Virus record (IMG/VR): IMGVR_UViG_2660238349_000007
Reading direction: 5' to 3' (one strand)
DNA length: 41,649 nt
From: a virus
Taxonomy: Duplodnaviria > Heunggongvirae > Uroviricota > Caudoviricetes
Shown here: in pieces, positions 1 through 41,649 of the stretch
Layout: the number at the start of each line of letters is the position of its first letter
Numbering within the stretch: the first letter of the stretch is position 1
Position numbers and translations under genes: made by a program
The notes under the pieces: generated by a model
Told to the model about the DNA's origin: nothing
What the model saw: the letters and a program-made list of their open reading frames with translations, nothing else
Database searches by the model: none

Positions 1-270
<270 letters not shown>

Positions 271-38325: not shown

Positions 38326-38768
38326 TGATGAAATATCTGTACGTAAACAACCTGGCATATCCTTACGAACTTCAGTCTCTTTATGTTGAAAAAGGTGAAT
38401 GGCCTGAAGAAAAAGGTGTTGATATAGACGAAGTAATTTTCAGGGAATATTTCTATGATACACCACCAGAAGGAAAATACAGATGTGTCGGAGAGGATGG
38501 ACTGCCTGCATGGGCAGATATTCCTCCACCAACACGTGAAGAACAAATTGCATCAGCCGAAACTAAAAAGCAGCAATTGATTAACCAGGCCAACGAATAC
38601 ATCAACAGTAAACAATGGCCAGGTAAAGCATCAATTGGTCGTCTGAAAGGTGAGGAACTGGCGCAATATAATTTGTGGCTGGATTATCTGGACGCACTGG
38701 AACTGGTCGATACTTCCGGTGCGCCAGATATTGAATGGCCTACGCCTCCGGCAGTTCAGGCCAGATGA
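38325..38768 (+). CDS. Tail fibre assembly protein (Tfa/U-like)
   Basis: 147-aa ORF with C-terminal Tfa signature (…LWLDYLDALELVDTSGAPDIEWPTPP). Confidence 0.7.
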   Translation: MMKYLYVNNLAYPYELQSLYVEKGEWPEEKGVDIDEVIFREYFYDTPPEGKYRCVGEDGLPAWADIPPPTREEQIASAETKKQQLINQANEYINSKQWPGKASIGRLKGEELAQYNLWLDYLDALELVDTSGAPDIEWPTPPAVQAR

Positions 38769-39342
38769 CGTCCGGCGCTGTGCTGGTATCTGTTGCCGTC
38801 ACCGCGTCAATGTAATCCAGCACAGCGTTAAGTCGGGTGTTTTCTGGCTGCGTCAGCTTCCGCCCAGCCTGTAATTTCAGTTGAATCAGACTGATGGAAG
38901 CCATTGCAGCATCAATCAGCGACTGGCGCTGTGCTTCTGCCGCTTCTACTGCGGCGCTATGCTGTGCCTCGGTATCGGTCACCCATTTCTCACCATCCCA
39001 TTTATCGTATGGCGTTAATGGGGCGATAGTGGTTGTATTTTCGGGGTAATCACCCGGAGTTGTGATTTCTTTGGCGTCTCCCGTTTCGGTGTTATAGACG
39101 ATTTCTCCGCGATGGTCTGGCACATATTCCCATGAGTTTAAATCCGCAGAGCGGCAGATGGCATAACCAGCTTTATATGTTCCTGGTGCATCTAAACAGG
39201 AACATGCCGGAATACCGACACCAACAGCAAGATATTCAGTTGATGTGGAAATATATTCTCGTGTTTCACCATTATAATTATAGACAGTAATATCCCCCGC
39301 CTTCGTGGCAATAAACTCGCTATTTAATACGGCATTATCCAT
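38740..39342 (-). CDS. Alternative tail fibre assembly protein (U'-like)
   Basis: 200-aa ORF with the same C-terminal signature (…LNAVLDYIDAVTATDTSTAPDVIWPELP), inverted relative to the other Tfa. Confidence 0.7.
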   Translation of the reverse strand: MDNAVLNSEFIATKAGDITVYNYNGETREYISTSTEYLAVGVGIPACSCLDAPGTYKAGYAICRSADLNSWEYVPDHRGEIVYNTETGDAKEITTPGDYPENTTTIAPLTPYDKWDGEKWVTDTEAQHSAAVEAAEAQRQSLIDAAMASISLIQLKLQAGRKLTQPENTRLNAVLDYIDAVTATDTSTAPDVIWPELPEA

Positions 39343-39855
39343 TATGCAGCCCTCACGATGTAATTAAATGAAAGGTTACGAGGGCGCATTGATATCCATG
39401 CCCCGGTAAAATTATCCTCCGCTGTCCTTTGAGTACCCGTTATGGAGTTATCTGCTGATGCAGGAACATAATCGCTATTATTTCCTGCTTTAGGATTAGC
39501 TGGGTTTCCAACAGTTATAACAGAATCAGCAGTAGCAAAAGCGATACCTACTTTGACATTAGTATTCAGATCGTAACCGTAATAATCCTGCAAAGCTGTA
39601 CGAATAAATGTTGCAGCCTGACCACTTAGCAATGAACGCCCCGTATCAATCCCTCTAGAATCATCCCAGCCACGAATAAACTCACCACGTAAATCAGGCA
39701 ATTTATTTGTCGGGTAAGCCTTTGCCAGTTCCGGGTATTCTTCAGCAGAAAAAGCTGCTCCGTTGCATTTCAGCCAGCCTGTTGGAGGTGTCTCTGAAGG
39801 CCACGGAACAGGTGCACCAACAGGTAATGCTGAACCTTCTCCCAAACCAACGTTT
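39342..39855 (-). CDS. Alternative tail fibre C-terminal segment (Sv'-like), promoterless in this orientation
   Basis: Minus-strand ORF whose 5' end is the right inversion site; reading frame across the site (NVGLGEG) matches the left site (NLGLGEA). Confidence 0.55.
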
Positions 39856-39917
39856 AAGAAAATGCAGAGATTACGGCTAACTGGCATCATCCCCGGTTTT
39901 TATTCAGGGGATCCATC

Positions 39918-40313
39918 ATGCTTATTGGCTATGTCCGCGTATCAACAAATGACCAGAATACAGAATTGCAGCGTAACGCGCTGGAGTGCGCAGGATGTGA
40001 ACTGATTTTTGAAGATAAAATCAGCGGAACAAAATCAGCCAGACCGGGATTGAAAAAACTGCTCAGAACGCTATCAGAAGGAGATACGCTGGTTGTCTGG
40101 AAGCTGGACAGACTGGGGCGCAGTGTGCGGCATCTTGTCGTGCTGGTGGAGGAGTTGCGCGAACAAGGTGTTAATTTTAGTAGTTATGTTATTACAGGTG
40201 GGGGATTTCTCCCCCTTATGCAGATTTTCTCGTTAACTATTGGCGAAGTGGCCATATTTTTCTGTTTTTTAAAAAACTATCTTCAACTATATAACTGCAA
40301 CAATGTTCACTAA
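39918..40313 (+). pseudogene. Truncated serine DNA invertase (Gin/Hin/Pin family)
   Basis: First ~87 aa match the invertase catalytic domain (MLIGYVRVSTNDQNTELQRNAL…LVVWKLDRLGRS…GVNF); downstream sequence diverges into AT-rich unrelated sequence with no HTH domain. Confidence 0.7.
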
Positions 40314-41082
40314 GGCCATAAAAACTAATTATTCCATATTTATGAGAAGCTATATCAGACAGTTCTGCTAATACTGTGGCAAGCCAACGAGCGATGCTAA
40401 GAGAATAGAATCTTCCCCACTTTTGAACAATGGTATTTTGTCCAGTACGGATGGAGGCTGATATAAGGTCTTGCATAATGTTGGTACTTTCATTCATATA
40501 CATGACCGTTGTATACGGTGAAAGAGTGGCATTGATAAACCTAGCATTTTCTTCAACACGTCTTTGTTCAACTGTATAATAATAATGTTTTTCAAGGATA
40601 CTCTCGGCTACTTCTCCCCACCATTTATTAATAGGTTCATTATTGGTTAAATTGGGGCTGCTTAATGAGGAGAAATTTGCGTAACGTCCCCGTCGGGCAT
40701 CAGCAAAGGAATCTAAACATTCAAGTATTTTGTAGGTAATTTTATGTGTAGGACGTGAATATCTCAGAGATAGTTGCATTTTTTTAGAAATACTATCAAC
40801 CTCGTTGGTTAATTCAATGAGCTTGTGTCCAAATTTTCTTACAATATTCTCGTCAGGCATTTTTCCTTTGTGTTCAATGGCATAGTGTGCAACAAGTATT
40901 AGTTTAGCAAGTCTCTCAAAACCTACAGAAAGCCCAAAAAATGCTGTGTAATATTCACCTATTTTGTCTGCATAATTGGCTTTACCTATGGCTGTTGCCC
41001 CAGAACCAATGAGCTGTGTTACTAAAGATGCTTCTCGGCCCAGAGCGTGCCATGCTGGAATATCCCAGGGATTTTTATTCAC
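40237..41082 (-). CDS. Hypothetical cargo protein, AT-rich (candidate accessory or defence gene)
   Basis: 281-aa ORF in AT-rich DNA replacing the 3' part of the invertase gene; no motif I can assign. Confidence 0.5.
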   Translation of the reverse strand: MNKNPWDIPAWHALGREASLVTQLIGSGATAIGKANYADKIGEYYTAFFGLSVGFERLAKLILVAHYAIEHKGKMPDENIVRKFGHKLIELTNEVDSISKKMQLSLRYSRPTHKITYKILECLDSFADARRGRYANFSSLSSPNLTNNEPINKWWGEVAESILEKHYYYTVEQRRVEENARFINATLSPYTTVMYMNESTNIMQDLISASIRTGQNTIVQKWGRFYSLSIARWLATVLAELSDIASHKYGIISFYGLSEHCCSYIVEDSFLKNRKIWPLRQ

Positions 41083-41210
41083 TTTATTATTTTCCTTTGC
41101 TCATAAATTTAAATTGTTTGAGTATCTCATAAAATATAAGGAGGTGGTTAAGGTTGTTGATCGCATATAATAGCTATTGAAAGTCAAGAACTCGGTTTTA
41201 TGTTCTACCA

Positions 41211-41249
41211 CTAATTAATATATTGTGAGTCTGACAATATATTAATTAG
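41211..41249. repeat. Perfect 16-bp inverted repeat with 7-bp spacer
   Basis: CTAATTAATATATTGT-gagtctg-ACAATATATTAATTAG in the intergenic region between the two cargo ORFs. Confidence 0.6.
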
Positions 41250-41382
41250 TATGATCAAACCAGCCATCAACTGATTCCTTGTATCTTTCAGAGTCTCCAG
41301 AACAAAAGCCTTAACGAATTCCTTATTTGTGAGTGCATTACAAAAAGCCATTGTTGCAGGGAACGAGTATAAAACTCGCCAG

Positions 41383-41649
41383 CTACTGGAGCAGGCTACC
41401 TGATTGTCGATCGATTCCTGCGTCCATATAGTCGATGGTCTTCTGGAGCTCTTCGATTAGGGCAACAGCTTTTGCTCGAGAAATACATATTAGTTGATCC
41501 GGAAATTCTTGTAAGGGCCAGTTTGGTATACAGGCCATGTTATCAGTGAAGGATGCAGACAAGTAAACTTCATTGGTAACCAGAGAATAGCTTACCTCAA
41601 AATTGGTGAGTTCCGGCAAACTGCTAACGTTTGACTCTTTTCTGCGCAT
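41383..41649 (-). CDS. Hypothetical protein, possibly truncated by the window edge
   Basis: 88-aa ORF whose ATG coincides with the last 3 bases of the window; AT-rich. Confidence 0.3.
   Translation of the reverse strand: MRRKESNVSSLPELTNFEVSYSLVTNEVYLSASFTDNMACIPNWPLQEFPDQLICISRAKAVALIEELQKTIDYMDAGIDRQSGSLLQ

What the first reader, a model, noticed from the sequence alone, without database searches (positions are those of the whole stretch)
41211..41249. Perfect 16-bp inverted repeat between the two cargo ORFs
CTAATTAATATATTGT and its exact reverse complement flank a 7-bp spacer in the promoter-proximal region of the 281-aa cargo gene. A 39-bp perfect palindrome is unlikely by chance even in AT-rich DNA. 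It could be an operator for a dimeric regulator, a bidirectional terminator or a recombination-site remnant.
Basis: seen in the sequence. Interest (0 to 1): 0.45.

Follow-up and report, generated by a model that had tools for sequence, protein, structure and literature searches.

The report
Lineage-specific hairpin repeat at cargo seam
A real, far-beyond-chance 17-bp perfect inverted repeat sits where a decayed dinI-like gene meets the leader of a cargo gene in one E. coli prophage lineage, but nothing shows it to be an operator, a terminator or a recombination site, so it is most likely an ordinary hairpin-forming by-product of DNA replication.

Summary
The repeat is real and slightly larger than reported. 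It has perfect 17-bp arms (41210-41226 / 41234-41250) around a 7-nt spacer, and it is the only perfect repeat of 10 bp or more in the window. About 3e-6 are expected by chance.

It lies in the cargo slot of a SEN34-like prophage integrated in yfhL. It starts at the stop codon of an unannotated, frameshifted dinI-like remnant. It ends 128 bp upstream of the GTG start of the 281-aa gene, which is a former integron cassette.

- **Distribution:** one copy in 43 of 5,426 complete E. coli genomes, three phages and six IMG/VR contigs, all the same cassette.
- **Absent where function would predict it:** sister prophages with other cargo, and all 37 homologue upstream regions scanned.
- **Not a canonical terminator:** 2 G:C pairs in 17 and no U-tract on either strand.
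- **No sign of an operator or recombination site:** no second site or half-site, no recognisable regulator nearby, and no homology breakpoint at the repeat.
- **Variation:** the arms are no more conserved than the flanks, while the hairpin tip is a substitution hotspot.

Best reading (0.45) is a template-switch by-product, possibly with incidental promoter or RNA-hairpin effects. Interest is low.

The parts
41210..41226 (.). Left arm of the inverted repeat, ACTAATTAATATATTGT; this is the arm nearer the 281-aa gene
   Evidence: Invariant in 14 compared sequences.
41227..41233 (.). 7-nt spacer, the hairpin loop: GAGTCTG, with natural variants GAGTTTG and GAATCTT
   Evidence: Three of the 7 positions vary among relatives (Fisher p = 0.005).
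41234..41250 (.). Right arm, ACAATATATTAATTAGT. Its outer ~11 nt (41240-41250) align with the stop-codon region of dinI-like genes (CAC TAA TTAA, continuing ..TA in strain TUM9812)
   Evidence: One natural variant, C41235T, occurs in strain 357900.
41240..41360 (-). Unannotated dinI-like pseudogene remnant: the C-terminal half, with three 1-nt deletions and a 2-nt insertion before the stop
   Evidence: About 75% identical to about 700 E. coli dinI-like genes over 41242-41360. The nhmmer dinI profile gives E = 1.4e-17 over 41240-41360.
41136..41162 (.). Left arm of a weak outer inverted repeat, nearly co-centred with the perfect one; status uncertain
   Evidence: 27 nt, 78% complementary to 41300-41326. 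Local alignment beat all but 7 of 1000 shuffles. Global symmetry z = 3.3. The 40 nt next to the perfect arms show no symmetry (z = 0.08).
41300..41326 (.). Right arm of the outer inverted repeat; it lies inside the dinI-like remnant
   Evidence: Six of the 54 outer-arm positions vary among relatives, so there is no sign of constraint.
41122..41128 (-). Position aligned with the integron attC R' core (GTTAGGC in relatives, GAGATAC here); the 5' edge of the former integron cassette
   Evidence: Alignment of upstream regions. blastn similarity to homologues reaches 41098-41119 only. attC sites flank metagenomic homologues.
40237..41082 (-). 281-aa cargo gene with a GTG start, a conserved RBS (AAAGGAAAAT) and a 5-codon mini-ORF just upstream
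   Evidence: No Pfam, PADLOC, PHROG or NCBIfam match. Predicted all-alpha fold with no PDB match.
41383..41649 (-). 88-aa ORF (phrog_17793), conserved next to attP/attR in SEN34-like prophages; the cargo slot starts about 15 bp after its stop codon
41217..41245 (-). Promoter-like TTAATA-N17-TATATT inside the repeat; its mirror image on the plus strand is at 41215-41243
   Evidence: 9 of 12 consensus matches. This is a consensus match only.
41133..41160 (-). Second promoter-like site, TCAACA-N16-TATATT, between the repeat and the 281-aa gene
   Evidence: 9 of 12 consensus matches.

Best explanation
The element is a hairpin- and cruciform-capable perfect inverted repeat with no dedicated protein partner. 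It lies at a seam in the prophage's cargo slot, where the 3' end of a decayed dinI-like moron abuts the leader of a former integron cassette, the 281-aa gene. The outer ~11 nt of one arm are inherited from the dinI stop-codon region (ACTAATTAATA). I infer that the rest was built, and is kept perfect, by intramolecular template switching during replication, in which the nascent strand copies the opposite arm. This is the general process proposed to create and homogenise short perfect inverted repeats in E. coli non-coding DNA. Shown here: the anatomy, the dinI ancestry of one arm, restriction to a single cassette lineage, single-copy status, lack of terminator features, lack of extra constraint on the arms, and a substitution hotspot at the hairpin tip. 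Inferred: the template-switch origin, and the claim that any activity is incidental. Such activity could be a 17-bp RNA stem-loop in transcripts reading from the 88-aa ORF towards the cargo gene, or sigma-70 promoter-like hexamers in very AT-rich DNA.
For: (1) Ancestry. The dinI profile aligns to 41240-41360 at E = 1.4e-17 and ends inside the right arm (alignments). DNA from 41120 to 41239, including the other arm, has no relative in 5,426 E. coli genomes, 50,697 phage records or 72,556 plasmids outside this cassette. (2) Distribution. The 101 bp centred on the repeat occur once per genome in 43 of 5,426 genomes, always chromosomal. They also occur in three phages and six IMG/VR contigs, all with the same cassette at 97-100% identity. 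(3) Absence where function would predict presence. Sister prophages at the same yfhL site, and Salmonella and Citrobacter relatives, share the 88-aa gene but carry other cargo and have no such repeat. None of 37 homologue upstream regions scanned has a perfect repeat with arms longer than 8 bp. (4) No extra constraint. One of 34 arm positions varies, against 14 of 268 flank positions (not significant). Four of the 9 tip positions (41227-41235) vary, against 14 of 300 elsewhere (Fisher p = 0.0009), as expected if the hairpin forms in DNA and exposes its loop. (5) No partner. There is no second site or half-site, and neither neighbour is recognisable as DNA-binding. (6) Precedent. Perfect inverted repeats of 13 bp or more are about 150-fold over-represented in E. 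coli non-coding DNA and are conserved beyond expectation; this is attributed to template switching rather than to function at each site (PMC5941160, read).
Against: No ancestor lacking the second arm was found, so the template-switch origin is an inference and not a reconstruction. An alternative origin is equally open: a pre-existing repeat could have joined dinI by recombination at the shared, self-complementary TAATTAA. The diversity is shallow (14 sequences read in detail, at most 3% divergence), so a lack of significant constraint is weak evidence. Two homologue upstream blocks carry AT-rich imperfect repeats at a similar distance and share words with the arms (TTAATATATTG in L062, TATTAATTAATAT in the Klebsiella type). 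If these are homologous, the repeat could be an inherited cis element. The similarity is only marginal, however (p about 0.05 each; no nhmmer hit). The repeat carries matched -35/-10-like hexamers with 17-bp spacing on both strands, and the cargo gene, as a former integron cassette, should need an outside promoter.
Confidence: 0.45

Rival explanations
1. The repeat is the promoter, or a bidirectional pair of promoters, that drives the 281-aa gene. A former integron cassette has no promoter of its own, and this very AT-rich symmetric DNA offers TTAATA-N17-TATATT on both strands. RNA polymerase could therefore start leftwards near 41210 into the cargo gene leader and rightwards near 41250 into antisense of the dinI remnant.
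For: Promoter-like matches (9 of 12) with optimal 17-bp spacing occur on both strands inside the repeat. The 750-bp region holds 7 promoter-like sites against 2.0 expected. No promoter-like site was found on the minus strand upstream of the 88-aa ORF. The cargo gene family comes from integron cassettes. Symmetric bidirectional promoters are enriched in horizontally acquired AT-rich DNA (bioRxiv 10.1101/2020.01.31.928960).
Against: These are consensus matches only; the -35 is weak (TTAATA) and there is no TG extension. An equally good candidate, TCAACA-N16-TATATT at 41160-41133, lies closer to the gene. The implied divergent start sites would be about 40 bp apart, outside the 7-25 bp range described for bidirectional promoters. 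A promoter does not need 17 perfectly matched pairs. The arms are not more conserved than the flanks.
Confidence: 0.2
2. The repeat acts in RNA. In a transcript running from the 88-aa ORF through the dinI remnant, the 17-bp stem-loop serves as a 3'-exonuclease barrier, an RNase III target or a leaky insulator. It would separate the conserved phage gene from the cargo gene without being a canonical intrinsic terminator.
For: The RNA hairpin is stable for its composition (-20.1 and -18.0 kcal/mol, z about -5). It sits directly after the stop codon of the former dinI gene, where 3'-end hairpins usually lie. In sister prophages the cargo gene follows the 88-aa ORF by only about 58 bp on the same strand, which suggests co-transcription through this slot. 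The wider region 41120-41340 folds into one long hairpin (plus strand -61.4 kcal/mol, z -5.7; minus strand -53.3, z -3.8).
Against: There is no U-tract on either side and only 2 G:C pairs, and the terminator scan found nothing. No Rfam family matches beyond noise. The outer stem varies freely among strains, at 6 of 54 positions. There is no evidence that the region is transcribed at all.
Confidence: 0.15
3. The repeat is an operator bound by a dimeric regulator, either host-encoded or one of the two uncharacterised neighbouring proteins, that controls the cargo gene.
For: It has dyad symmetry and lies upstream of the gene. Spacer substitutions are tolerated while the arms stay intact in 13 of 14 sequences. 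Possibly related imperfect repeats lie at about -150 to -120 upstream of Klebsiella-type and L062 homologues, and the L062 differences improve pairing.
Against: No half-site or second site exists anywhere in the phage. The 281-aa protein is an all-alpha fold with no match, and the 88-aa model is four strands plus a helix; neither has a helix-turn-helix or ribbon-helix-helix signature. The 88-aa gene occurs in many prophages without the repeat. Homology to the homologues' repeats is unproven. Seventeen perfect pairs is more than protein recognition needs.
Confidence: 0.1
4. The repeat is a lox/FRT/dif-like core site (two recombinase-binding arms around a 7-bp crossover region) used by a tyrosine recombinase to exchange cargo in this slot.
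For: The 17-7-17 architecture resembles recombinase core sites (13-8-13 for loxP and FRT; recalled knowledge, not tested here). It lies in a slot that demonstrably swaps cargo. The cargo gene family is mobile and integron-derived.
Against: It is single-copy in every genome, with no partner site. The homology breakpoint between cargo variants is at 41367/41368, 137 bp away. The phage integrase uses an unrelated core, TTCACACATATCACAATT. There are no attC R''/R' cores. The only nearby recombinase is a truncated serine invertase.
Confidence: 0.04

Closest known systems
Short perfect inverted repeats (corrected quasipalindromes) of E. coli non-coding DNA, attributed to replication template switching (Lavi et al. 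2018, PMC5941160)
   Same: Perfect arms, a short spacer and a non-coding location. The length is far beyond chance. The arms stay perfect while the surrounding DNA diverges, and there is no associated protein.
   Different: At 17 bp it is at the long end of that class (all repeats in that study had arms under 20 bp; mean 5.75). It is extremely AT-rich (GC 0.20). It is in recently acquired prophage cargo rather than core intergenic DNA. Part of one arm can be traced to a specific pseudogene end.
Intrinsic and bidirectional terminators at moron boundaries, for example AAAGCCATCGATA-N4-TATCGATGGCTTT in the sister prophage of strain 96_1414B (L020 3339-3368)
   Same: A stem-loop directly after a stop codon, between modules of a prophage cargo region.
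   Different: It has no flanking A or T tracts and only 2 G:C pairs in 17, and it is not found by the terminator scan.
Symmetric bidirectional sigma-70 promoters of horizontally acquired AT-rich DNA (Warman et al., bioRxiv 10.1101/2020.01.31.928960)
   Same: AT-rich acquired DNA with symmetric -10-like elements on both strands. Each arm contains the self-complementary AATATATT.
   Different: The best-spaced hexamer pairs imply start sites about 40 bp apart, not the 7-25 bp described. Perfect 17-bp symmetry is not a feature of that class. No start-site data exist for this locus.
Tyrosine-recombinase core sites (loxP, FRT, dif) and integron attC sites
   Same: Inverted arms around a 6-8 bp central region, in a genomic neighbourhood of mobile cassettes.
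   Different: There is no partner site, no cognate recombinase, no breakpoint at the site, and no R''/R' core motifs.

Membership tests
Intrinsic (Rho-independent) terminator | G+C-rich stem of about 5-14 bp | tested here: not met
   Two G:C pairs in 17 (direct reading). The scan requires at least 3 G:C pairs and found 0 sites.
Intrinsic (Rho-independent) terminator | Run of U immediately 3' of the stem, on one or both strands | tested here: not met
   The 3' flanks are GGTAGAAC on the minus strand and ATGATCAA on the plus strand.
Operator of a dimeric transcription factor | Dyad-symmetric site in the control region of the regulated gene | tested here: met
   Perfect dyad 128-168 bp upstream of the GTG start at 41082.
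Operator of a dimeric transcription factor | A cognate DNA-binding protein encoded nearby or otherwise identifiable | tested here: not met
   The 281-aa and 88-aa proteins have no Pfam, PADLOC or NCBIfam DNA-binding domain, and their predicted folds have no PDB match. A host factor cannot be excluded.
Operator of a dimeric transcription factor | The site, or related half-sites, recur with the regulated gene or elsewhere in the regulon | tested here: not met
   No other match with up to 3 mismatches in the window. The site is absent upstream of homologues. A possible relation to the imperfect repeats of the Klebsiella-type and L062 blocks is not significant.
Operator of a dimeric transcription factor | Specific protein binding | not testable with these tools
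   This needs EMSA, footprinting or a DNA pull-down.
Tyrosine-recombinase core site (lox/FRT/dif type) | Two inverted binding arms around a 6-8 bp crossover region | tested here: met
   17-7-17 architecture.
Tyrosine-recombinase core site (lox/FRT/dif type) | A partner site and a cognate recombinase | tested here: not met
   One copy per genome in 43 genomes. The integrase core is TTCACACATATCACAATT. The nearby invertase is a truncated serine recombinase.
Tyrosine-recombinase core site (lox/FRT/dif type) | Homology between variants breaks at the site | tested here: not met
   The cargo boundary is at 41367/41368. No record breaks at 41227-41233.
Integron attC site | R'' (RYYYAAC) and complementary R' (GTTRRRY) cores at the base of an imperfect hairpin | tested here: not met
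   True attC sites flank metagenomic homologues (GCCTAAC...GTTAGGC). The repeat has neither core. The nearest R'-equivalent, GAGATAC at 41128-41122, lies 82 bp away and has no complementary partner.
MITE or IS remnant | Terminal inverted repeats with target-site duplication and multiple copies | tested here: not met
   Single copy. The flanks ...TACC and ATGA... are not duplicated. The only other near-exact match is one Bdellovibrionales MAG.
Known structured RNA family (Rfam 15) | Score at or above a family's gathering threshold | tested here: not met
   The only hits are eukaryotic miRNA-precursor models at 19-22 bits, against thresholds of 80-135.
Template-switch-generated perfect inverted repeat (corrected quasipalindrome) | Perfect arms with a short spacer in non-coding DNA, far longer than chance | tested here: met
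Template-switch-generated perfect inverted repeat (corrected quasipalindrome) | An imperfect or one-armed ancestral state, converted in a single multi-nucleotide event | tested here: inconclusive
   One arm is partly dinI-derived. No relative carries the pre-event state.
Bidirectional sigma-70 promoter | -35 and -10 hexamers with 16-18 bp spacing on both strands | tested here: met
   TTAATA-N17-TATATT on both strands, 9 of 12 matches. This is a consensus match only.
Bidirectional sigma-70 promoter | Mapped divergent transcription start sites | not testable with these tools
   No expression data are available.

The most novel reading that the evidence does not exclude
The perfect repeat is a functional cis element that the former integron cassette acquired when it settled in the prophage. 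One form would be a cruciform or hairpin switch that doubles as a symmetric promoter, making expression of the putative defence gene respond to DNA supercoiling or to replication and SOS state; the element is fused to the end of an SOS-type dinI gene. Another form would be a descendant of the AT-rich imperfect repeat seen about 120-150 nt upstream of Klebsiella-type and L062 homologues, which would make it a conserved regulatory site for this uncharacterised gene family.
Probability: 0.07. Interest if true: 0.5.

Novelty: new member of a known kind. Interest (0 to 1): 0.15.

Why it matters
The practical value is negative. A statistically striking palindrome in AT-rich prophage cargo need not be an operator, a terminator or a recombination site. 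Here, comparative data (single lineage, single copy, no partner, no extra constraint) argue that it is a mutational by-product. It does give a small natural example of a hairpin-tip substitution hotspot and of a repeat arm traceable to a pseudogene end.

The surroundings are more useful than the repeat. The 281-aa cargo gene turns out to be a widespread former integron cassette that recurs as a lone gene in known defence hotspots, and it is a reasonable candidate for an untested anti-phage gene.

Tried and rejected
- **A second, inverted dinI 3' end forming the left flank, making the repeat the centre of a tail-to-tail dinI duplication.** The dinI nhmmer profile finds only the minus-strand remnant, with no second hit at E up to 100. 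The left flank against EDL933 dinI is at chance level (433 of 1000 shuffles score as well). The 40 nt next to the arms show no symmetry (z = 0.08). Only the 27-nt outer repeat stands out, and it varies freely.
- **The repeat as the window's version of a conserved upstream element of the 281-aa gene family.** A MAFFT alignment suggested this. However, a profile of the conserved block finds nothing in the window, and pairwise scores are marginal (p = 0.046, 0.055, 0.33, 0.58). This remains a lead, not a result.
- **The repeat as part of an attC site.** It has no R''/R' cores.
- **Spacer inversion between variants, a template-switch signature.** The variants GAGTCTG, GAGTTTG and GAATCTT are point changes, not inversions.
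- **A cognate regulator.** Family scans and two structure predictions with PDB fold searches were uninformative. The 88-aa model has low confidence (pLDDT 64.6), so its fold search carries little weight.
- **The near-identical palindrome in a Bdellovibrionales MAG (L019).** It lies upstream of an uncharacterised 164-aa ORF with no Pfam hit. I treated it as a chance match in very AT-rich DNA.
- **Rfam.** Only noise.
- **CRP, LexA, Fur, C-box and hix/gix sites.** I compared these by eye from recalled consensus sequences. None fits, but none was formally tested.

Full report
**Observation.**
The sequence at 41211-41249 is as described. The complementarity extends one pair further, giving perfect 17-bp arms: 41210-41226 (ACTAATTAATATATTGT) and 41234-41250. 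They flank the 7-nt spacer GAGTCTG. No other perfect inverted repeat with arms of 10 bp or more and a spacer of 12 or less exists in the 41,649-bp window.

In 500 dinucleotide-preserving shuffles of the AT-rich segment 40237-41649, the longest arm was usually 6-8 and never above 14. The analytic expectation for arms of 17 or more is about 3e-6. The hairpin is stable for its composition: DNA -12.2 kcal/mol (z -6.2); RNA -20.1 and -18.0 kcal/mol on the minus and plus strands.

**Where it lies.**
The window is a 41.6-kb prophage of the Salmonella phage SEN34 (Brunovirus) type, inserted in the 5' end of E. coli yfhL between yfhL and yfhH.
- The 18-bp att core is TTCACACATATCACAATT. It lies at window 214-231 and again about 210 bp beyond the window's right end.
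- Reading the minus strand inwards from attR, the order is:
  - the 88-aa ORF (41649-41383);
  - an unannotated dinI-like remnant;
  - the repeat;
  - about 127 bp of leader;
  - the 281-aa gene (41082-40237, GTG start);
  - a DNA invertase gene truncated at its 3' end.
- GC content falls from about 50% in the phage to 38% over 40237-41649 and 33% in 41083-41382.

**The 88-aa ORF is a phage gene, and the slot after it is a cargo slot.**
The ORF belongs to phrog_17793. It lies next to attP in SEN34 and next to attR in E. coli, Salmonella and Citrobacter prophages. Downstream of it these relatives carry different cargo:
- a 215-aa protein, with or without a serine acetyltransferase;
- an acyltransferase-3;
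- HicAB plus a glycosyltransferase.

Homology between the window and sister prophages at the same yfhL site ends at 41367/41368, about 15 bp after the stop of the 88-aa ORF. None of these relatives has the repeat.

**One arm comes from a dead gene.**
A sensitive search with 41083-41382 found the whole region in only 43 genomes. It also matched about 700 dinI-like genes at about 75% identity over 41242-41360. Alignments show the C-terminal half of a dinI-like gene with three 1-nt deletions and a 2-nt insertion just before the stop codon.

The conserved gene end CAC TAA TTAA corresponds to the outer part of the right arm (ACTAATTAA.., 41250-41242). A dinI nucleotide profile aligns to 41240-41360 (E = 1.4e-17) and nowhere else. 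So the outer ~11 nt of one arm are inherited from the dinI stop region. The rest of that arm, the spacer, the other arm and the DNA down to about 41120 have no detectable relative outside this cassette. That holds for E. coli genomes, phages and plasmids.

**Distribution.**
- The 101 bp centred on the repeat occur once per genome, always on the chromosome, in 43 of 5,426 complete E. coli genomes. Eighteen copies are identical, 22 have one mismatch and 3 have two.
- The repeat is also in phages vB_EcoM-606R2, -611R5 and -683R1 and in six IMG/VR contigs. All carry the same cassette at 97-100% identity.
- A scan of one genome for each of 185,579 species, allowing any spacer of 3-11 nt, found only an unrelated Bdellovibrionales MAG.

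**Does it travel with the cargo gene? No.**
The 281-aa protein has 486 homologues across Proteobacteria but no Pfam, PADLOC, PHROG or NCBIfam family. Homologues at 68-74% identity sit as lone genes in these places:
- after a type I hsdR (Enterobacter);
- in the P2 gpA-portal hotspot beside a PvuII R-M system (Serratia);
- after ogr (Citrobacter);
- between a SRAP-domain gene and a convergent umuDC-like pair (Klebsiella);
- between the tail-fibre assembly and sheath genes of a P2-like prophage (Morganella).

DNA similarity to the window stops 16-37 nt upstream of the GTG. None of 37 homologue upstream regions scanned has a perfect repeat with arms longer than 8 bp.

**A lead that did not hold.**
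Klebsiella-type, L062 and Citrobacter homologues share a conserved upstream block of about 170 nt that moves with the gene. It contains an AT-rich imperfect repeat at about -150 to -120 (for example ACATTGATAATACA TTGG TGTATTAATTAATATG). MAFFT aligned the window's repeat to it, with shared words TTAATATATTG and TATTAATTAATAT. However, a profile of the block finds nothing in the window. Pairwise scores are marginal (p = 0.046 and 0.055). I therefore do not treat the repeat as inherited with the gene, although this cannot be excluded.

**Tests of the three proposed functions.**
- *Terminator.* The stem has 2 G:C pairs in 17. The 3' flanks (GGUAGAAC and AUGAUCAA) have no U-run, and the scan finds no terminator. 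A true bidirectional terminator in a sister prophage has the expected A and T tracts.
- *Operator.*
  - There is no second copy or half-site within 3 mismatches anywhere in the phage.
  - The immunity-region repeats are unrelated.
  - The 281-aa protein is predicted with fair confidence (pLDDT 80.9) as an all-alpha fold with no PDB match.
  - The 88-aa model (pLDDT 64.6) is four strands plus a helix, also without a match.
  - The 88-aa gene is common without the repeat.
- *Recombination site.*
  - The 17-7-17 layout resembles recombinase core sites.
  - But the repeat is single-copy, and no homology breakpoint falls in it.
  - The integrase core is unrelated.
  - It lacks attC cores.
- *Rfam.* Noise only.

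**Variation among relatives.**
I compared 14 sequences over 309 aligned positions and found 18 variable sites.
- Four variable sites fall in the nine positions at the hairpin tip (41229, 41231, 41233, 41235), against 14 of 300 elsewhere (Fisher p = 0.0009). These represent three or four events, so the signal is only moderately strong.
- The arms carry one variable site in 34 (C41235T in strain 357900), which does not differ from the flanks.
- The outer 27-nt repeat (41136-41162 / 41300-41326) varies at 6 of 54 positions.

The arms therefore show no extra constraint, and the loop looks like a mutational hotspot. This is what a DNA hairpin with an exposed loop would give, although the shallow diversity limits the power of the test.

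**Mechanism.**
Perfect inverted repeats of 13 bp or more are about 150-fold over-represented in E. coli non-coding DNA and are conserved beyond expectation. This has been attributed to template switching that converts imperfect repeats to perfect ones (PMC5941160). Several features fit that class:
- an arm seeded by the self-complementary TAATTAA of a dead gene's end;
- perfect pairing that stops abruptly, with the next 40 nt showing no symmetry;
- restriction to a single lineage;
- the absence of any partner.

I put 0.45 on this by-product reading.

Incidental activities remain possible. TTAATA-N17-TATATT occurs on both strands. A former integron cassette needs an outside promoter. Symmetric promoters are common in acquired AT-rich DNA (10.1101/2020.01.31.928960). 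Against this, an equally good candidate lies nearer the gene (41160-41133), and the geometry is atypical. I give the promoter reading 0.2, an RNA hairpin that acts as insulator or stabiliser 0.15, an operator 0.1 and a recombinase site 0.04.

**Novelty and verdict.**
This is a real and statistically exceptional but ordinary kind of feature: a lineage-specific perfect inverted repeat at a seam between decayed and imported modules. It is a new member of a known kind, and interest is about 0.15. The more useful by-products of the analysis are listed under things noticed in passing. Chief among them is that the cargo gene is a widespread former integron cassette that recurs in defence hotspots (compare 10.1101/2024.07.02.601686).

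Noticed in passing
window 40237-41082 (-); loci L053, L057, L067, L069, L030, L032: The 281-aa cargo gene belongs to a former integron-cassette family. Metagenomic homologues have a classic attC (GCCTAAC...GTTAGGC) right after the stop codon and GTTAGGC about 46 nt upstream of the start. Enterobacterial copies keep degraded remnants; in the window these are TAG-TTAAC after the stop and GAGATAC at 41128-41122. The gene recurs as a lone gene in known defence hotspots (after hsdR, in two P2 hotspots, after ogr, beside umuDC). It has no Pfam, PADLOC, PHROG or NCBIfam match and a confident all-alpha model with no PDB match, so it is a candidate untested anti-phage gene.
   Followed up: partly
window 41240-41360 (-): Unannotated dinI-like pseudogene remnant. 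It is the C-terminal half, has several frameshifts and lacks the N-terminus and promoter. The 46-aa ORF at 41351-41211 is a frameshifted reading of it, not a gene.
   Followed up: yes
window 1-261 and 214-231; L003 44859-44876: The prophage integrates inside the 5' end of the ferredoxin gene yfhL at an 18-bp core and supplies a replacement N-terminus ([16 protein letters not shown] against the original [16 protein letters not shown], which is left at attR). Repeats of CAACACA-type words flank both att sites and are probably arm-type integrase sites.
   Followed up: partly
window 39918-40185 (+): The DNA invertase gene is truncated: the Resolvase N-terminal domain is present and the C-terminal HTH is missing. 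The tail-fibre invertible segment (opposed tail-fibre and assembly genes at about 38740-39890) is therefore probably frozen in this lineage. Salmonella relatives keep an intact 196-aa invertase.
   Followed up: partly
window 41383-41649 (-); L005, L020, L109-L119: The 88-aa ORF (phrog_17793) is conserved next to attP/attR in SEN34-like prophages of Escherichia, Salmonella and Citrobacter. The slot just downstream of it swaps cargo: a 215-aa protein, acyltransferase-3, HicAB plus glycosyltransferase, or a serine acetyltransferase. Some gene callers extend the ORF to 113-145 aa.
   Followed up: partly
L032 2815-2965, L048, L049, L058, L062, L030 (about 170 nt upstream of 281-aa homologues): A conserved upstream block travels with Klebsiella-type homologues. 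It contains a small GC hairpin (GTCCGC-N12-GCGGAC), an AT-rich imperfect repeat, and a long imperfect hairpin ending in GTTAGGC. A similar GTCYGC-N12-GCGGAC element recurs about 125 nt downstream of the gene, so the unit appears bracketed by a repeated hairpin motif of unknown nature.
   Followed up: partly
window 41227-41235: Substitutions among strains cluster at the hairpin tip (G41229A, C41231T, G41233T, C41235T): 4 of 9 positions against 14 of 300 elsewhere. This suggests the hairpin or cruciform forms in vivo and exposes the loop to damage.
   Followed up: partly
window 41136-41162 and 41300-41326; 41120-41340: A 27-nt, 78%-complementary outer repeat is nearly co-centred with the perfect one, so the whole roughly 200-nt region folds into one long hairpin. 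The fold is better on the plus strand (-61.4 kcal/mol, z -5.7) than on the minus strand (-53.3, z -3.8). The right arm is dinI coding sequence. There is no constraint among strains, and the origin is unexplained.
   Followed up: partly
window 41083-41103 (-): A 5-codon mini-ORF (ATG AGC AAA GGA AAA TAA) overlaps the RBS and ends 4 nt before the GTG start of the 281-aa gene. A similar mini-ORF is present in Klebsiella-type homologues (ATG ATA AAA GGA AAT TAA). In Serratia the ATG is in frame with the gene. This could be translational coupling or an alternative start.
   Followed up: no
L019 1893-1926 (Bdellovibrionales MAG JANMFM010000313.1): A near-identical AT-rich palindrome (TAATTAATATATTGT-N4-ACAATATATTAATTA) lies 17 nt upstream of the start of an uncharacterised 164-aa ORF. 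This is probably coincidence in very AT-rich DNA.
   Followed up: partly
L026 (strain 357900), L027 (strain CAU16175), L025 (strain PEC411): The cassette is decaying in some strains. An IS3 sits in the 88-aa ORF region, an IS421 lies between the invertase remnant and the 281-aa gene, and PEC411 has only a 342-bp annotated ORF in place of the 281-aa gene. The repeat stays perfect in CAU16175 and PEC411.
   Followed up: no
window 1-39900 against L003 (strain A4): The window spans 41,649 bp, but the matching interval in strain A4 spans 41,708 bp. A 59-bp length difference therefore lies somewhere left of 39900, even though the right 1.75 kb are 100% identical.
   Followed up: no
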